Source of the DNA: a virus
UHGV virus genome: UHGV-0110025
DNA: 30,952 bases
Direction: 5' to 3' (one strand)
Under the pieces are notes generated by a model, which had not been told where the DNA came from, searched no databases, and saw only the letters and a program-made list of their open reading frames with translations. Made by a program: the position numbers and the translations under genes. How positions within the stretch are numbered: position 1 is the stretch's first letter; every line of letters begins with the position of its first letter. This document shows, in pieces, positions 7,347 through 20,407 of this stretch.

Positions 7347-7862
7347 ATGCCTGGATTCCAAAATGCACAGCAAAATCAATTTGATGATCATGCTCCAGAA
7401 ATGGAGATAAACTTAATCGTAGATGTTGCTGAGCAGCCCGTAGCCTTTACCTATCAATATAGTGAGCAAATTAGCCACCTTGCACCGCAATGTCCGCCAG
7501 CAGAAGCGATTGAATGTGACAAAGAATGCTGGCGCTTCACTCTCAATCCGATAACGGACAGTTGCTTTTGGCCTCCAAAAAGAAGGGTTCCTGAGAGGGT
7601 TGCCTCAGACAGTCAGCAGGAGTGCTCTATGTGGGCGTTGTCTATGTATGAATCAGAGCGACAAGCTGTAGTCGCTTATTCTGGGCTTTCTAAGTCAGTG
7701 AGAAATATTAAGAAAACAATTGGAGATCACCTTGCAAGAGGCACGGTAGCTTGTGGTGATGGTAGATGTATGCCTCCAAATAGAAAAGGCCATTTTGACT
7801 TTCATCCATATTTAGATACTGAGTTCCCTGATGGCTTTCAGGTAATAAGAGCATTACCATGA
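7347..7862 (+). CDS. Hypothetical protein (171 aa), first gene of an accessory pair
   Basis: Strong SD AAAGGAG 8 nt upstream of the ATG. AT-rich upstream region. Its stop overlaps the next start (ATGA at 7859-7862). No domain recognised. Confidence 0.75.
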   Translation: MPGFQNAQQNQFDDHAPEMEINLIVDVAEQPVAFTYQYSEQISHLAPQCPPAEAIECDKECWRFTLNPITDSCFWPPKRRVPERVASDSQQECSMWALSMYESERQAVVAYSGLSKSVRNIKKTIGDHLARGTVACGDGRCMPPNRKGHFDFHPYLDTEFPDGFQVIRALP

Positions 7863-8947
7863 TAAAATTAGATGCTAAAAGAATCACTGCACCGGAGGTC
7901 GGAGATTACTCGTGGTATTCTGACTTGGTGTATTTTGATGGACCACTGATTTGTTTATTTCGAGGAAGTGGCTATAAGGATGCTCTTTATGTTTGGCTTG
8001 ATAATTCAACCAGAGCCAACCGCTGGTGTTTAATACCTGTATCAAGGTCAACTTTAGATTCCTATCTTAATCAAAGAATGAGTCTAAGAGAAATCATACA
8101 ATCAAACGAATATGTTTATATTTGCAATCACTTTGCAGAAACAGGACGAAAAAATTATAGCCGTCTGAGCGTAGATGATTTCCCTGAGGAATATATGCCT
8201 GATGCTGACTCATATTTATATGAAGAAATATGCACCGATGACGCACTATTGTTAAAGCAAGAACGCACATCTAGCTATATGCTAGGACTGGACAACCAGT
8301 TGTTTATAAATGATTTATCAGAAATTCCAAAAATTTTCGAACAATTGTATTCTTTCCACTATGGACTTGCCCACTTGGGCAGAATTTCCATTAGAAATAC
8401 CATGCTGCGATTGATGGGTAGTTGGACTGGTGGATTCTCAGCAGTAAATATTTTCACTGGTTTAAAGAATGTCATTCCTGTCCTGCACCGCCCAGAAGTT
8501 AGCTCACTTCAATATAACTCCCCCGGACATATTGAATTGAACTTGCTTCCTGACTTGGCGCAGAGCGTTCAGGATGTATCTGTTCGTGTTGAAAATGAAT
8601 TTATTTATGACCGTTTAGAGAAAATCTATAAAAACAATTACACATACTTTAAAGATAAAGATCTATCAGGTTTTGATGAGGGTGGAGGAATTGAGTTAAG
8701 GAACATCGACTCTGAAACCACAGAAAATCTTCGTAAGCGTGTTAGAATTTTCTTTAGGTGTTTAGGTTGGAAAACCTATCAAGCGCAGTTTGATATGATC
8801 GGTGCCCATCCCTTGCAGCAGTTACGCGCAGTTATGGCGTATTACAGACGCCTGAAAACATTACGAGAATATATTGTGGCAGATAAATTATTCATTGGTC
8901 ATTCGCGAGTGCCGGTAGAGCAAATTACTGTGAATACTGAAAATTAG
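7859..8947 (+). CDS. Hypothetical protein (362 aa), second gene of an accessory pair
   Basis: Long uninterrupted ORF in AT-rich DNA. Translationally coupled to the upstream gene. No catalytic motif or TM segment recognised. Confidence 0.8.
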   Translation: MIKLDAKRITAPEVGDYSWYSDLVYFDGPLICLFRGSGYKDALYVWLDNSTRANRWCLIPVSRSTLDSYLNQRMSLREIIQSNEYVYICNHFAETGRKNYSRLSVDDFPEEYMPDADSYLYEEICTDDALLLKQERTSSYMLGLDNQLFINDLSEIPKIFEQLYSFHYGLAHLGRISIRNTMLRLMGSWTGGFSAVNIFTGLKNVIPVLHRPEVSSLQYNSPGHIELNLLPDLAQSVQDVSVRVENEFIYDRLEKIYKNNYTYFKDKDLSGFDEGGGIELRNIDSETTENLRKRVRIFFRCLGWKTYQAQFDMIGAHPLQQLRAVMAYYRRLKTLREYIVADKLFIGHSRVPVEQITVNTEN

Positions 8948-9073
8948 CTTTCTGCATGAGGATGCGTGAATCTGCATTATTTATTAATTCAACCCATAGA
9001 TACTGTAGGACGCAATAGGCATGGGCTTGAGACCAAAATGCAACTGCATTAAAACCGCCCCATTAAGCGGGTA

Positions 9074-9092
9074 GGCGTGGCGGGGAAAGCAT
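9074..9092 (+). other. cos: cos cohesive-end sequence (19 nt)
   Basis: GGCGTGGCGGGGAAAGCAT matches the P2 cohesive end GGCGAGGCGGGGAAAGCAC at 17/19. From memory it is the 186 version. It sits in a GC-rich non-coding block upstream of the portal gene's 3' end, as in P2/186. Confidence 0.8.
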
Positions 9093-9311
9093 TGCGCGCC
9101 AGCAGTGATGCGTAATAATAAAAATTATCCTCTGAGCGCGTCGTGATGGCGCTGTCGTGGTCGCTGCTGGTTCGTTGGTGGTCGGGTGTGTTCGTGCGCG
9201 TGAGACGCATCTGATGCGTGATGGTGGTGTGCATGGAAAAGCCACCAGGAGCAGCGGCTTTACAGGAGTGGCAGGATTCAAACTGCTAATTATGTTTCTA
9301 CTATGATTAAA

Positions 9312-10316
9312 CTAATTTACATGTATGTAGAGTTCACCGTCGCCAGACCAATCGGGACACTCTAAAACAAGCCCAAACTGCTTGAATATTTCATCAATGA
9401 TTATTGTTATCTCCCGAAAATCACCAAAACCTGTAATGTGCTGGTCATTAAACTTCCCATAAAGATTCTGAAAAGCAATGCCTAATTCTGATAATTGATA
9501 TCTTATCTTTGAGTTGGATAGTGTAAGGGATAGCTTTGGATCGTATTCTTTAATATTGATGTTTAGAGAATGGACATAACCCATCGCATAAGCATAAGAG
9601 TTGATGATTAGCCTGATACGTTTTTTTACTTCGAGATACATGTCATTCAGAGAAATATTACCGTACTTATAACCCCAGATGAGTTTTTCAATCTCGTCAG
9701 ATACTTCATTTACAACAGTGTCAAGATTCTCTAAAAATAAATCAATAGTTTCTTGAGGGGCAGACCCCGAAGACATGTAATTAGCGAGATATTCAGACCA
9801 TGCACGCGTGGCTGAGATAAGAAGCGCGCTACCATACTCGTTGACTGTAAAATTTTGGGCTAAGCATGTTAGTAAGTTTTTTTCATGTACGTGCACTAAT
9901 TCATGGTGAATGCGATGGATGACTGCGAGGTATCCTTCTTCTTTCAGTTTTAAGAAGCTACCATCATTGAAAAGCTCAACAAAAAAATCAATCGATAGCA
10001 CAAGGGTATATTCTTCACATAGCCCATCATTGCCAATTTTTGTTACTAACTGCCCGACGGCTGCGCCCTGTTTGCTATTGGTAAATGAACTAGGGGATTT
10101 GTGTTGGTAAGAGGATGTTACCTTTTGAAGAGCTTCACTGAAGTTATAGGAAACAATCACGCATTTTAATTTGGAGATATCAAGATTGAGATTTTTTGTT
10201 AAAGCTCGGATAGCTTCTAGTGTGAAATTACCGATATTATTTGCTTCTTGCTCAGTAGCGAAACCTTCGAGGGTTATTTTAAAATCAGTTTCCAAAATAT
10301 TAATCTCCGCGCCCAT
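9312..10316 (-). CDS. Hypothetical protein (334 aa) with HExxH zinc-metallopeptidase-like motif
   Basis: Long ORF in very AT-rich DNA. HELVH is encoded at 9891-9905 (context AVIHRIHHELVHVHEK). No signal peptide or TM segment. No obvious SD. Confidence 0.78.
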   Translation of the reverse strand: MGAEINILETDFKITLEGFATEQEANNIGNFTLEAIRALTKNLNLDISKLKCVIVSYNFSEALQKVTSSYQHKSPSSFTNSKQGAAVGQLVTKIGNDGLCEEYTLVLSIDFFVELFNDGSFLKLKEEGYLAVIHRIHHELVHVHEKNLLTCLAQNFTVNEYGSALLISATRAWSEYLANYMSSGSAPQETIDLFLENLDTVVNEVSDEIEKLIWGYKYGNISLNDMYLEVKKRIRLIINSYAYAMGYVHSLNINIKEYDPKLSLTLSNSKIRYQLSELGIAFQNLYGKFNDQHITGFGDFREITIIIDEIFKQFGLVLECPDWSGDGELYIHVN

Positions 10317-10334
10317 TGTTTTGATATTCGATGC

Positions 10335-10363
10335 ACTATAGCTTTCGCAGATTGCATCTTCAA
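10335..10363 (-). promoter_or_regulatory. Candidate sigma70 promoter for the HExxH gene
   Basis: On the minus strand: TTGAAG (10363-10358), 17-nt spacer, TATAGT (10340-10335). Located between the portal stop (10394) and the ATG at 10316. Predicts a short leader. Confidence 0.5.
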
Positions 10364-10393
10364 TAATGAGCGCAGAGATTGTGGCGGCCTAAG

Positions 10394-11440
10394 TTATTCT
10401 GGGTTGTCGAGGGTGTACTCTTTGAACCTGATGACCTCCATACCGAGCCAGTCGTTTACCTCCCTGAACCTATCCTGCAGGGGTGACAGCTCATTACGCA
10501 CAAATACCTTTGCCACCTTCTCAACGTCACCGAGTGAACCGATATTCTCGGGCTTGCCGCCCATGAGCTGGAACGGTACGCGGTGCGCGTCCATCAGATC
10601 GGCGGCACTGGCCTTCTTGATGTTGAAAAAGTCATCCTTTGTGGCGACCTCGCTCAGTGGCACGATTTTGATGCCGTCCGGTTTTCCGCCGGGAGCGTAG
10701 AAAAACAGGTTCTTAAAGTTGCCGAGCCCTTTTGAGTTGCGCATCGCCTCGCGCAGCGATTCGACGTCGGTCGCGCTCTGCGCCGGGTCAGTCACATACA
10801 TGATGTAACCCGCGTGCGCGCCGTTCTGATAATACTTGCGGCGGAACAGCGTCGCGGATTCATTCAGCCAGGCGGAATTTAGCGCGCTGAGATATTCGGG
10901 CAGGCCGTAAATCTCCTGATTAATGTCGGGCTCCAGCAGGTGAAACACGGTATCAGGCGCGAACTCGTGCGGCTGGGTGAAGTTTTCCACAAACCAGAAA
11001 ATCGAATCGTCGACTCCGCGTCGGGTGTATTTGGCTGGCGAGGCCAGCAGTTTGATTAACTGGCCGGTGACGCTGTGGCGCTGCTCAAGAAAGGCGTTAC
11101 CGAACACCAGATAATCGAGCGCAAAGCGGCTGAAATCCTGACGGGATAACAACGGGTGCGGAATGTAGGTGCTCGCGAGCACGTTACGCTTAACATAAAT
11201 TGGCGAGCTGTGATGCACGGCAGAGCGCAGGCTCTTTGCCAGCCCTGAGAAGCTGACCGGCGGCTCGTACCATTTGCCGTTACTGATGCACTCGACGTAA
11301 TCCAGAATGTCGCGCTTATCGAGTACCGGCACCGGCTCGCCGAAGGTGAACGCTGTCGTTTTTGGCGGTGCGCTGGCGGTCAGTTGTTGTGGTTTGCTGG
11401 CCTTTTGTGCGTTGGCTTTACGGGATTTTTGTTTACCCAT
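10394..11440 (-). CDS. Q: Portal protein gpQ
   Basis: 348 aa, size and position of P2 Q. Adjacent to and co-oriented with terminase P. Conserved P2-like sequence. Confidence 0.95.
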   Translation of the reverse strand: MGKQKSRKANAQKASKPQQLTASAPPKTTAFTFGEPVPVLDKRDILDYVECISNGKWYEPPVSFSGLAKSLRSAVHHSSPIYVKRNVLASTYIPHPLLSRQDFSRFALDYLVFGNAFLEQRHSVTGQLIKLLASPAKYTRRGVDDSIFWFVENFTQPHEFAPDTVFHLLEPDINQEIYGLPEYLSALNSAWLNESATLFRRKYYQNGAHAGYIMYVTDPAQSATDVESLREAMRNSKGLGNFKNLFFYAPGGKPDGIKIVPLSEVATKDDFFNIKKASAADLMDAHRVPFQLMGGKPENIGSLGDVEKVAKVFVRNELSPLQDRFREVNDWLGMEVIRFKEYTLDNPE

Positions 11441-19197: not shown

Positions 19198-19842
19198 TTA
19201 TAGTTTGAAATCTGCGTAATTATCAATAACCTCTAGAACACCGCTGATATTGTTATCTCTGCGCCAATTCCAATTGCCATGTATCAAATTTGCATTAGAA
19301 TAAAGATATCTAAGGAACTGAGATGGTAAGAGTGGTTTGTTGCATAAAAATTCATCATAACTATTACTCATATACCACACATATCCATTTTTAATGTCAA
19401 AACTTAAATTCTCACCTTCAATTTTCTTAAAGTTAATTTCTTTATTTAGAGCATTTTCAAACTCTTGTGTATAATAAACACAGTGTATATGAGCGTGAGA
19501 AATGCACCCTCCTGAACGATCTATATTTTCACCTGCTCCGCTTTCAAAGAAAATTAGAGATCTACCAGATTGGTGGATTATAAATTCATTAAGTTCTCGC
19601 AGAATCTCCTTGCCATTACTCCGGGTATCTCGATCAAGAGCAGCAAAGGAGTTGATATGCCGCTTAGGAATCAGCATCACATGCGAATTATTTAGCGGGC
19701 CAATACTAGGTACAATTAGAAAATCATTTGTTTCTGCAATGATATTTTTCTTGTCATTTACGATTTCATCGTATCCTTTGATAAGGCTAATGCCATTTAT
19801 TTCATCGCATATTCCACAGAACGAATTACAAGAATTATTCAC
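19198..19842 (-). CDS. HIT-family (histidine triad) nucleotide hydrolase/transferase-like protein with C-terminal extension
   Basis: GTG start at 19842 with AGGAGA SD 8 nt upstream. N-terminal CGIC. FLIVPSIGPLNNSHVMLIPKRH core. His triad HAHIH is encoded at 19483-19497. A ~90-aa extra C-terminal region follows. DNA is very AT-rich. Confidence 0.85.
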   Translation of the reverse strand: MNNSCNSFCGICDEINGISLIKGYDEIVNDKKNIIAETNDFLIVPSIGPLNNSHVMLIPKRHINSFAALDRDTRSNGKEILRELNEFIIHQSGRSLIFFESGAGENIDRSGGCISHAHIHCVYYTQEFENALNKEINFKKIEGENLSFDIKNGYVWYMSNSYDEFLCNKPLLPSQFLRYLYSNANLIHGNWNWRRDNNISGVLEVIDNYADFKL

Positions 19843-20407
19843 GTTTATTGTCTCCTGGTTTTTTAGGGAGCAATTTTTCAGCCCAAGATGCGAGTCGGCT
19901 TAGAACTAAGTCTGAAAAATATCCTAATATAAAACAAATCGAGAATGCAATTTTGGTCTTACCATGCCCTTTAATGGAGGATACAAACGTATCCGGAGAT
20001 AATATCGTATAAGAACAAAAAGCCACTAAAGCAGCTAAGAACGGAATAAAAATCCTCCAGTAGAACTTATGGGATTCCCAAGGAAAATTATACTGATTGT
20101 TTTTCCCTCTAGCAGTTACTCTATAAAACCATTTTGCATTATACACCCACCCTCCAAAAAAACCGCCAAGAATAGAAAACAAAGATATTTTATTATTATA
20201 TGACAGCTCAAAAACAAATTGGAAAAGAAAGGCGAGAATGCAACCTATTACAAAAAGAACTATTAAATAAGCAAATTCGAATTTTATTTGTTCACAATCG
20301 TTATTAAAATAAGGCACAACCTCATCATCGCCTAAGGTTTTTTTTCTTTCAGTCATTTGCCAAACACCTTCATTTTTTACTGTGAGCCAGGGTAATTGCA
20401 TATTCAA
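19835..20407 (-). CDS. Integral membrane protein, about four predicted TM helices
   Basis: Hydrophobic segments FAYLIVLFVIGCILAFLFQFVF, ISLFSILGGFFGGWVY, FYWRIFIPFLAALVAFCSYTIL and IAFSICFILGYFSDLVL. The 3' end overlaps the HIT gene start by 8 nt. 20407 is a TTG; the real start may be the ATG at 20401, or the ATG at 20356 (MTERKK, preceded by GAAGG). Confidence 0.8.
   Translation of the reverse strand: MNMQLPWLTVKNEGVWQMTERKKTLGDDEVVPYFNNDCEQIKFEFAYLIVLFVIGCILAFLFQFVFELSYNNKISLFSILGGFFGGWVYNAKWFYRVTARGKNNQYNFPWESHKFYWRIFIPFLAALVAFCSYTILSPDTFVSSIKGHGKTKIAFSICFILGYFSDLVLSRLASWAEKLLPKKPGDNKRE

What the first reader, a model, noticed from the sequence alone, without database searches (positions are those of the whole stretch)
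9295..10393. Lone HExxH-motif protein with its own sigma70 promoter, wedged between cos and the portal gene
Seen directly:
- About 1.1 kb of very AT-rich DNA separates the conserved GC-rich cos block from the Q stop codon (10394).
- It carries one 334-aa ORF on the Q/P strand.
- The ORF contains HHELVHVHE (HExxH at nt 9891-9905), with glutamates further downstream (e.g. WSEYLANY) that could supply a third ligand.
- It is preceded by TTGAAG-17 nt-TATAGT (10363-10335), a near-consensus promoter, and has a very short leader without an SD.

Established knowledge: from memory, in P2/186 the portal gene ends only a couple of hundred bp from the left cohesive end, so this gene is an insertion.

Inference:
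- It is a prophage-expressed metallopeptidase-like cargo gene.
- It could be a single-gene defence protein, for example a protease activated by or cleaving a phage or host factor, or an anti-defence or exclusion factor.
- Its position means it enters the cell first or last during packaging and injection and is the very left end of the virion DNA.
Basis: partly seen in the sequence, partly recalled or inferred. Interest (0 to 1): 0.7.

Follow-up and report, generated by a model that had tools for sequence, protein, structure and literature searches.

The report
Uncharacterised zinc protease cargo in prophage
A 186/P2-like prophage carries, between its portal gene and its DNA-packaging site, a self-contained gene for a previously undescribed family of zinc proteases that keeps turning up among anti-phage defence genes, so it is a good untested candidate for a one-gene phage defence.

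Summary
A 38% GC cassette of about 1.1 kb (window ~9267-10381) lies between the portal stop (10394) and cos (9074-9092). It carries one ORF (9312-10316, minus strand) with HExxH at 9891-9905.

Two corrections:
- The likely start is the TTG at 10295 (327 aa), with a GGAG Shine-Dalgarno 9 nt upstream.
- The cassette sits between the portal stop and the portal terminator tW, so late read-through is possible in addition to its own promoter.

The locus is the known P2 gpA-gpQ defence hotspot. PD-T4-10 lies just across cos but assorts independently. Outside P2-like prophages, homologues are solitary genes beside restriction-modification, TIR, PD-T4-7, DRT-associated, NLR-like and HEPN genes.

Best reading: a stand-alone, conditionally acting zinc endopeptidase used for phage defence or exclusion. 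It would work like Lit but is unrelated to it. The fold and active site are well supported; the defence role is inferred and untested.

The parts
9312..10316 (-). ORF for the zincin-like protein. It is 334 aa from the ATG at 10316; the probable real start is the TTG at 10295-10293, giving 327 aa. The stop codon is 9312-9314.
   Evidence: start-codon conservation; RefSeq annotates 327 aa.
9891..9905 (-). HExxH motif (H138-E139-L-V-H142) on the predicted active-site helix (residues 126-148).
   Evidence: Invariant in 72 divergent members. Together with E175 it is kept in 135 of 138 distant cluster representatives.
9792..9794 (-). Codon of E175 (in WSEYLAN), the predicted third zinc ligand, on the next long helix (residues 160-185).
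10335..10363 (-). Sigma-70-type promoter candidate, TTGAAG-17 nt-TATAGT.
   Evidence: The hexamers are conserved while the spacer has diverged in nine loci, including two outside prophages.
10305..10308 (-). GGAG Shine-Dalgarno, 9 nt upstream of the TTG start.
9234..9261 (-). Terminator hairpin (9-bp stem plus UUUUCC tail), the counterpart of phage 186 tW. It now lies downstream of the cargo gene.
10382..10393 (-). Remnant of one arm of the tW stem (CTTAGGCCGCCA) directly after the portal stop. It marks the right junction of the insertion. No hairpin followed by a T-run was found here.
9074..9092 (.). Left cohesive end (cos), by alignment to phage 186 nt 1-19.
10394..11440 (-). Portal gene (P2 Q / 186 W). 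It is the upstream gene on the same strand and the source of possible late read-through.

Best explanation
The gene is a self-contained 'moron' cassette: its own sigma-70 promoter, a Shine-Dalgarno, a TTG start, one ORF, and a borrowed terminator. It was acquired from a low-GC donor and inserted between the portal stop codon and the portal terminator tW of a 186-like prophage. That places it on the left-arm side of the known gpA-gpQ (cos-proximal) defence hotspot.

The product is a cytoplasmic, single-domain zinc metallopeptidase of a new gluzincin family. The predicted zinc ligands are H138, H142 and E175, and E139 is the predicted general base.

Inferred function: it is made in the lysogen in a latent form. 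When another phage infects, it cleaves an essential host protein or a phage protein, which aborts or excludes that infection. This is the logic of the e14 Lit protease, carried out by an unrelated protein.

Shown here: the anatomy, the insertion, the family, the conserved site, the fold, and the defence-rich neighbourhoods.

Inferred: catalytic activity, expression, the defence role, and the trigger and target.
For: - ORF, motif and low GC.
- Insertion relative to phage 186, with the terminator retained downstream and a half-stem at the other junction.
- Promoter, SD and TTG start conserved, including outside prophages.
- Family: 78 close clusters and about 355 clusters at 50% identity.
- Conserved site:
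  - H138, E139, H142 and E175 are the only invariant columns in 72 members down to 16% identity.
  - The motif is kept in 135 of 138 distant representatives.
- Same slot in other genera: Salmonella (about 2,000 index blocks), Klebsiella, Pectobacterium and Citrobacter; Yersinia carries it in the same gpQ-gpA interval, downstream of an ogr-like gene.
- The partner cargo across cos varies, so the gene is autonomous:
  - PD-T4-10 in the window.
  - A Lamassu LmuB homologue in Pectobacterium.
  - Unknown proteins, or nothing, elsewhere.
- Defence neighbours outside P2:
  - Type I restriction-modification.
  - A TIR-like gene and PD-T4-7 flanking it; a DRT-associated DUF1848 gene.
  - AbiO, Nhi, Shedu, DRT RT and DpdF within 7 kb.
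  - NB-ARC-TPR plus HEPN.
  - Pycsar and CoiA on a Paenibacillus plasmid.
- Two distant members are fused to DUF2971, the domain of the Aristaios antiphage protein (PMC11381338).
- The hotspot itself is documented in PMC9122126 and PMC9519451.
Against: - No experimental phenotype was found. Rousset et al. list what appears to be this gene (WP_001622301, identified by its neighbours in the arrangement) only as 'hypothetical'.
- No PADLOC, Pfam or NCBIfam hit.
- Zinc-site geometry in the model could not be inspected.
- Guilt by association also fits anti-defence genes or other conflict genes.
- Several distant homologues sit next to housekeeping genes: PutA-like genes in L024, OpuAC in L025 and GroEL in L004.
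- One E. coli copy is frameshifted, so the gene is dispensable.
Confidence: 0.45

Rival explanations
1. It is a counter-defence or other phage-fitness protease. Made early from its sigma-70 promoter, or late by read-through from the portal operon, it would degrade a host immune protein or a competitor's protein. It would benefit the phage rather than protect the lysogen.
For: - It lies inside the late P-Q transcription unit, upstream of tW.
- It is the first gene at the left virion end.
- Plasmid ArdC shows that zincin domains can serve anti-restriction (PMC7213743).
- Conflict islands mix offensive and defensive genes (bioRxiv 10.64898/2026.08.01.741415).
Against: - Most family members lie in chromosomal islands and plasmids, not in phages. 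Only 1 of 50,697 deposited phage genomes has it.
- The conserved stand-alone sigma-70 promoter is typical of lysogen-expressed morons.
Confidence: 0.17
2. It is an antibacterial toxin delivered to competitors, for example a T6SS cargo effector like Pantoea Pse7, which has an M1-like HExxH domain.
For: - Pse7 is a validated T6SS effector with an M1-like HExxH domain (bioRxiv 10.64898/2026.08.01.741415).
- The Serratia fonticola homologue lies between Hcp-DUF4225 modules.
- The Kosakonia homologue lies near a Tlde1-domain gene.
Against: - No adjacent immunity gene or Hcp/VgrG/PAAR gene in the prophage slot.
- The family occurs in Paenibacillus, Brevibacillus and Bacillus, which lack T6SS (established knowledge).
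- No Pantoea member was seen.
- The Pse7 sequence (WP_064703290.1) could not be obtained for comparison.
Confidence: 0.05
3. It is a zincin-fold enzyme whose substrate is not a protein (for example a nucleic acid, a nucleotide signal or cell-wall material), or a regulatory protease of the ImmA/IrrE type that cleaves a repressor.
For: - The zincin-like RNase YbeY appears among weaker fold hits.
- A BFVD hit to an IrrE-like protein.
- An HTH gene lies next to the Paracoccus and Paenibacillus homologues.
Against: - No Peptidase_M78 or YbeY Pfam hit.
- In the prophage the gene is far from cI, and in most loci it has no adjacent HTH partner.
Confidence: 0.1
4. It is a host-directed virulence effector, like the prophage-borne T3SS zinc proteases NleC/NleD or GtgA/GogA/PipA.
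For: - It is prophage-borne and common in Salmonella.
- Its size (about 330 aa) and HExxH motif resemble NleC (from memory).
Against: - No Pfam hit to the M85 or M91 families.
- It occurs in marine Psychromonas, Shewanella, Colwellia and Vibrio, in Bradyrhizobium and in Firmicutes, within defence or mobile-element islands.
Confidence: 0.03

Closest known systems
Lit protease of the E. coli e14 prophage (peptidase U49; cleaves EF-Tu when triggered by the T4 Gol peptide)
   Same: - A prophage-encoded, single-gene, cytoplasmic HExxH zinc protease of about 300 aa.
- The local motif is similar: HHE(I/L)xHV.
- It is the model for how this protein is proposed to work.
   Different: - hhalign aligns only 18 columns around the motif, with probability 16%.
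- No Pfam or PADLOC hit of any kind.
- The trigger and target here are unknown.
Gluzincin metallopeptidases of clan MA(E): M1 aminopeptidases, M30 lugdulysin, M9 collagenases, M4 thermolysin
   Same: - HExxH helix followed by a Glu-bearing helix.
- N-terminal mixed beta-sheet subdomain.
   Different: - No sequence-level relation: the profile against E. coli PepN gives probability 0.6%, and there is no Pfam hit.
- The His-to-Glu spacing is 32 residues rather than 18-19.
- No GxMEN motif.
- It is a single domain with its own C-terminal helical bundle, and it has no signal peptide.
Cargo of the P2 gpA-gpQ hotspot (old, tin, PD-T4-10, Rst systems)
   Same: - Same cos-proximal variable interval.
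- Low GC and its own promoter.
- It swaps independently of the phage backbone (PMC9122126, PMC9519451).
   Different: - It occupies the left-arm sub-slot, between the portal stop and tW, which is empty in 186 and in the 14 other phage records that matched both flanks.
- Its function has not been validated.
Pse7, the Pantoea agglomerans T6SS1 effector with an M1-like HExxH domain
   Same: It is a small bacterial-conflict protein with a distant M1-like zincin domain, found in 'armoury' hotspots that also hold defence systems.
   Different: - Pse7 has a cognate immunity gene and is secreted by T6SS.
- Here there is no immunity gene and no T6SS context in the prophage.
Aristaios (DUF2971 single-protein antiphage system, Lactococcus)
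   Same: Two distant family members carry an N-terminal DUF2971 domain. This links the zincin module to a validated antiphage domain.
   Different: - The window protein has no DUF2971 domain.
- One of the fused proteins (P0142) has lost H138 and E175.

Membership tests
Gluzincin (clan MA(E)) zinc metallopeptidase | HExxH motif on a helix | tested here: met
   H138-E139-x-x-H142 lies in predicted helix 126-148. It is invariant in 72 divergent members. The motif plus E175 is kept in 135 of 138 distant representatives.
Gluzincin (clan MA(E)) zinc metallopeptidase | Third zinc ligand is a Glu on the following helix | tested here: inconclusive
   E175 is invariant and lies on helix 160-185. The model coordinates could not be inspected, so ligand geometry was not verified.
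Gluzincin (clan MA(E)) zinc metallopeptidase | Thermolysin-like catalytic fold | tested here: met
Gluzincin (clan MA(E)) zinc metallopeptidase | Zinc-dependent peptide-bond hydrolysis | not testable with these tools
   This needs biochemistry.
Peptidase family M1 | HExxH-x18-E spacing, GxMEN exopeptidase motif, and a match to Pfam Peptidase_M1 | tested here: not met
   The spacing is 32 residues and there is no GxMEN motif. No Pfam hit. hhalign against PepN gives probability 0.6%.
Lit / peptidase U49 | Sequence homology to Lit | tested here: not met
   hhalign aligns 18 columns at 16% probability. No Pfam or PADLOC hit.
ImmA/IrrE (M78) regulatory proteases | Peptidase_M78 domain next to a cognate HTH repressor | tested here: not met
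   No Pfam hit. In the prophage, cI lies about 7 kb away and there is no adjacent HTH gene.
Any defence system in PADLOC-DB v2.0.0 | Match to a PADLOC model | tested here: not met
   No family at E of 1 or less for the window protein. Only scattered chance-level hits among 72 relatives.
PD-T4-10 toxin-antitoxin defence system | Being one of its two components, or always co-occurring with them | tested here: not met
   PD-T4-10 A and B are the ORFs at 7347-7862 and 7859-8947. The zincin occurs in 26 complete E. coli genomes whose similarity to the window stops at 9038, just left of cos; the three loci inspected carry other or no cargo across cos.
P2 gpA-gpQ hotspot cargo (moron) | Lies between gpA and gpQ, is variably present, and has atypical composition | tested here: met
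   hotspot defined in PMC9122126.
Juno (VPA1262 family) defence | Match to the VPA1262 family | tested here: inconclusive
   No NCBIfam hit of any kind at E of 1 or less. I could not confirm that a VPA1262 model is in the library used.

The most novel reading that the evidence does not exclude
This is the founding example of a new, widespread family of stand-alone gluzincin proteases, found in Proteobacteria and Firmicutes. They would act as one-gene abortive-infection or exclusion systems. The mechanism would be analogous to Lit, but the family evolved independently and has its own phage trigger and cleavage target.
Probability: 0.35. Interest if true: 0.65.

Novelty: new member of a known kind. 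Interest (0 to 1): 0.45.

Why it matters
Protease-based single-gene phage defences are few; Lit is the classic example. This family is absent from Pfam, NCBIfam and PADLOC. It nevertheless has a clean catalytic signature, a confident model and a compact, clonable cassette with its native promoter, so a direct test is cheap. If it is a defence gene, it adds a new effector type to the P2 hotspot repertoire, with a target and a phage trigger to be found. It also shows that the stretch between the portal stop and its terminator is a usable cargo slot in 186-like phages. If it is not a defence gene, it is still an unannotated zincin family worth naming.

Tried and rejected
- Sequence searches gave nothing significant: Pfam, NCBIfam and PADLOC, and PDB by sequence or by profile. 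PHROGs gave only unknown-function families.
- Foldseek against PDB and BFVD gave no significant match. The AFDB library was not available.
- Lit homology rejected. M1 homology at sequence level rejected.
- A Rousset 2022 supplement lists what appears to be this gene (WP_001622301) only as 'hypothetical'.
- Literature searches for a characterised HExxH or zincin antiphage protein of this type found none.
- Juno (VPA1262) was considered. There was no NCBIfam hit.
- Pse7 could not be compared because no sequence was available.
- A genome scan with the divergent alignment A2 failed for lack of a conserved stretch. The scan with A1 gave only 12 loci.
- Rfam found no RNA family in the window.
- Small ORFs antisense to the gene (9910-10110, 10171-10341) and ORFs overlapping cos (9049-9234, 9063-9281) were treated as spurious.
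- Being part of PD-T4-10 rejected.

Full report
**1. What is there**

The window is a 186/P2-like (Peduoviridae) prophage of E. coli. Its gene order matches Escherichia phage vB_EcoM-613R3 and prophages in complete E. coli genomes: cI, cII, fil, B, A, then cos, then the portal, terminase and capsid genes.

- ORF 9312..10316 (minus strand, 334 aa) exists. It contains HHELVHVHE, with HExxH at nt 9891-9905.
- GC is 0.38-0.39 over 9201-10400, against 0.55-0.60 in the adjacent portal and terminase genes.
- Alignment to phage 186 puts the 19-nt cohesive end at window 9074-9092.

**2. It is an insertion, and where exactly**

In phage 186 the portal gene W stops at nt 196 and its terminator tW is at 164-187. 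In the window:

- 186 nt 1-193 aligns to 9074-9266.
- 186 nt 179-272 aligns to 10382-10470.
- The stem sequence TGGCGGC is present at both junctions.
- A 9-bp hairpin followed by UUUUCC, the tW counterpart, lies at 9234-9261, downstream of the cargo stop.
- Only a half-stem remains between the portal stop and the cargo gene, and no hairpin followed by a T-run is found there.

So the cassette of about 1.1 kb (about 9267-10381) lies between the portal stop codon and the portal terminator. By inference, late P-Q transcription can read into it, and tW now ends its transcript.

In 14 other P2/186-like phage records the cos block and the portal end are 250-290 bp apart. Only 1 of 50,697 phage records encodes the protein.

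**3. Expression signals**

TTGAAG-17-TATAGT (10363-10335) is found, but such matches are not above chance in this AT-rich stretch: 5 were found against 4.4 expected. The support comes from comparison.

I aligned nine loci: E. coli, Escherichia sp., Citrobacter, Salmonella, Klebsiella and Pectobacterium, a P2-like Yersinia prophage, and non-prophage islands of Enterobacter and Serratia fonticola.

- The -35 TTGA and the -10 TATAGT are kept in eight of the nine. In the two island loci the spacer has diverged.
- The same alignment shows an invariant TTG (window 10295) preceded by GGAG 9 nt upstream.
- The ATG at 10316 is missing in Yersinia and Enterobacter.
- Many homologues start MExDL. RefSeq's 327-aa call has the length this start gives.

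The real product is therefore probably 327 aa, and it has a normal Shine-Dalgarno.

**4. The protein**

- No Pfam, NCBIfam or PADLOC family matches. PHROGs gives only phrog_11743, of unknown function.
- There are 78 close clusters, all 'hypothetical', in Escherichia, Salmonella, Klebsiella, Pectobacterium, Serratia, Yersinia, Enterobacter, Kosakonia, Shewanella and Psychromonas.
- A profile search finds about 355 clusters at 50% identity. Most are 305-340 aa, and the match covers nearly the whole protein in a single stretch.
- In 72 members down to 16% identity, the only invariant columns are H138, E139, H142 and E175.
- Among the distant representatives that cover the site, 135 of 138 keep all four, and position 145 is Asp or Glu in 133 of 142.
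- AlphaFold2 gives pLDDT 90.7 and pTM 0.89. The model has a mixed beta/alpha N-terminal part, the HExxH helix (126-148), a second long helix carrying E175 (160-185), and a C-terminal helical bundle.
- Foldseek finds nothing significant in PDB or BFVD. The weak hits are again zincins.
- By profile it is related neither to PepN nor to Lit.
- The N-terminus shows no hydrophobic signal-like segment (read directly from the sequence).

Conclusion: this is a new gluzincin-type family, very probably an active cytoplasmic zinc peptidase. Ligand geometry and activity were not tested.

**5. Context in P2-like prophages**

The gene lies in the gpA-gpQ interval, which Rousset et al. (PMC9122126) and Vassallo et al. 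(PMC9519451) describe as a defence hotspot. Rousset's Table S5 lists what appears to be this gene (WP_001622301, identified by its neighbours) only as 'hypothetical'.

Just across cos, the window carries PD-T4-10 A (7347-7862) and B (7859-8947). PD-T4-10 is a validated toxin-antitoxin abortive-infection system (PMC9519451).

The zincin is independent of it:

- 26 of 5,426 complete E. coli genomes have the cassette at 99% identity or more. Their similarity to the window stops at 9038, just left of cos, and the loci inspected carry different right-arm cargo or none.
- Pectobacterium pairs it with a Lamassu LmuB homologue. Salmonella, Klebsiella and Citrobacter pair it with unknown proteins.
- The slot and the 77-nt spacing from the portal stop are identical in these genera.
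- One E. coli copy is frameshifted.

**6. Context elsewhere**

Outside P2-like prophages the homologue is again a solitary gene in variable regions or mobile elements.

- Psychromonas marina: beside a type I restriction-modification system and toxin-antitoxin-like genes.
- Colwellia: flanked by a TIR-like gene (PDC-S35/PycTIR) and PD-T4-7.
- P. aquimarina: beside a DRT-associated DUF1848 gene.
- Shewanella: beside a NERD-domain gene.
- S. fonticola and a distant metagenomic member: beside HEPN_Swt1 and a resolvase, the latter also beside an NB-ARC-TPR protein.
- Paracoccus: on a mobilisable element.
- Paenibacillus: on a plasmid with Pycsar and a CoiA-family gene.
- Pooled: among 111 neighbouring ORFs from nine such loci, PADLOC finds AbiO, Nhi, Shedu SduA, DRT reverse transcriptases, DpdF and type IV RecD.
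- Two distant members are fused to DUF2971, the domain of the Aristaios antiphage protein (PMC11381338).
- Some distant homologues have housekeeping neighbours, so the association is strong but not universal.

**7. Mechanism**

Best-supported reading (confidence about 0.45 for the whole chain, about 0.8 for 'active zinc peptidase'): a latent protease made in the lysogen cleaves a host or phage protein when another phage infects. This is the way Lit works, carried out by an unrelated protein.

Rivals:

- A counter-defence or phage-fitness protease. Read-through from the late operon and the end-of-genome position fit this; the mostly non-phage distribution does not.
- A T6SS-type antibacterial effector like Pse7. 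Hcp and Tlde1 neighbours in two loci fit this; the absence of an immunity gene and the presence in Firmicutes do not.
- A zincin acting on a non-protein substrate, or an ImmA-like regulator.
- A T3SS virulence effector.

**8. Novelty and verdict**

The hotspot is known and holds many unknown genes, so finding a cargo gene there is not surprising. What is new:

- the family itself, which is unannotated, widespread and has a clean catalytic signature;
- its sub-slot between the portal stop and tW;
- the portable promoter-gene cassette.

I rate it a new member of a known kind, with interest 0.45. It is a well-defined candidate that is cheap to test.

Noticed in passing
window 7347-8947 (+): Two overlapping ORFs (171 and 362 aa) match PD-T4-10_A (E 6.5e-69) and PD-T4-10_B (E 3.3e-169). 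PD-T4-10 is a validated toxin-antitoxin abortive-infection system. They sit on the right-arm side of cos, convergent with the zincin gene.
   Followed up: yes
window 9038 (boundary) and 8900-9037: No complete E. coli genome (of 5,426) has the window's PD-T4-10 side joined to the zincin side. All 26 full matches begin at window 9038, 36 nt left of cos. The two arms of the hotspot therefore appear to recombine at or near cos.
   Followed up: partly
window 19198-20407 (-): A second low-GC block (0.32-0.38) lies between tail genes. It has two ORFs: 214 aa with a HIT-like HAHIH motif, and 190 aa that looks membrane-spanning. It may correspond to the second, tail-gene (Z/fun-type) P2 hotspot. Neither ORF hits PADLOC.
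   Followed up: partly
L007 9290-10627 and 7042-7614; L034 12636-13934 and 14341-14922: A HEPN_Swt1-like protein of about 430-445 aa and a serine resolvase recur near zincin homologues that share only 59% and 24% identity with the window protein. Enterobacter (L030) also has the resolvase divergently upstream. This may be a shared island type or a functional link.
   Followed up: no
proteins P0142 and P0204 (about 595 aa): These distant family members have an N-terminal DUF2971 (Aristaios-type) domain fused to the zincin module. P0142 has R and A in place of H138 and E175, so it may be a pseudo-protease.
   Followed up: partly
L003 6275-7278 (E. coli TW10598): The zincin gene is split into two ORFs, apparently by a frameshift, in this ETEC strain. 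Its right-arm hotspot is nearly empty.
   Followed up: no
window 9049-9281 (-): ORFs of 61 and 72 aa overlap the conserved GC-rich cos block. Some records annotate them as hypothetical proteins (for example L001 6012-6197). They are probably not genes.
   Followed up: no
L029 7378-10362 (Pectobacterium polaris prophage): The right-arm cargo opposite the zincin consists of a Lamassu LmuB-like ATPase (E 7.9e-45) and MC5- and CTD9-domain proteins.
   Followed up: partly
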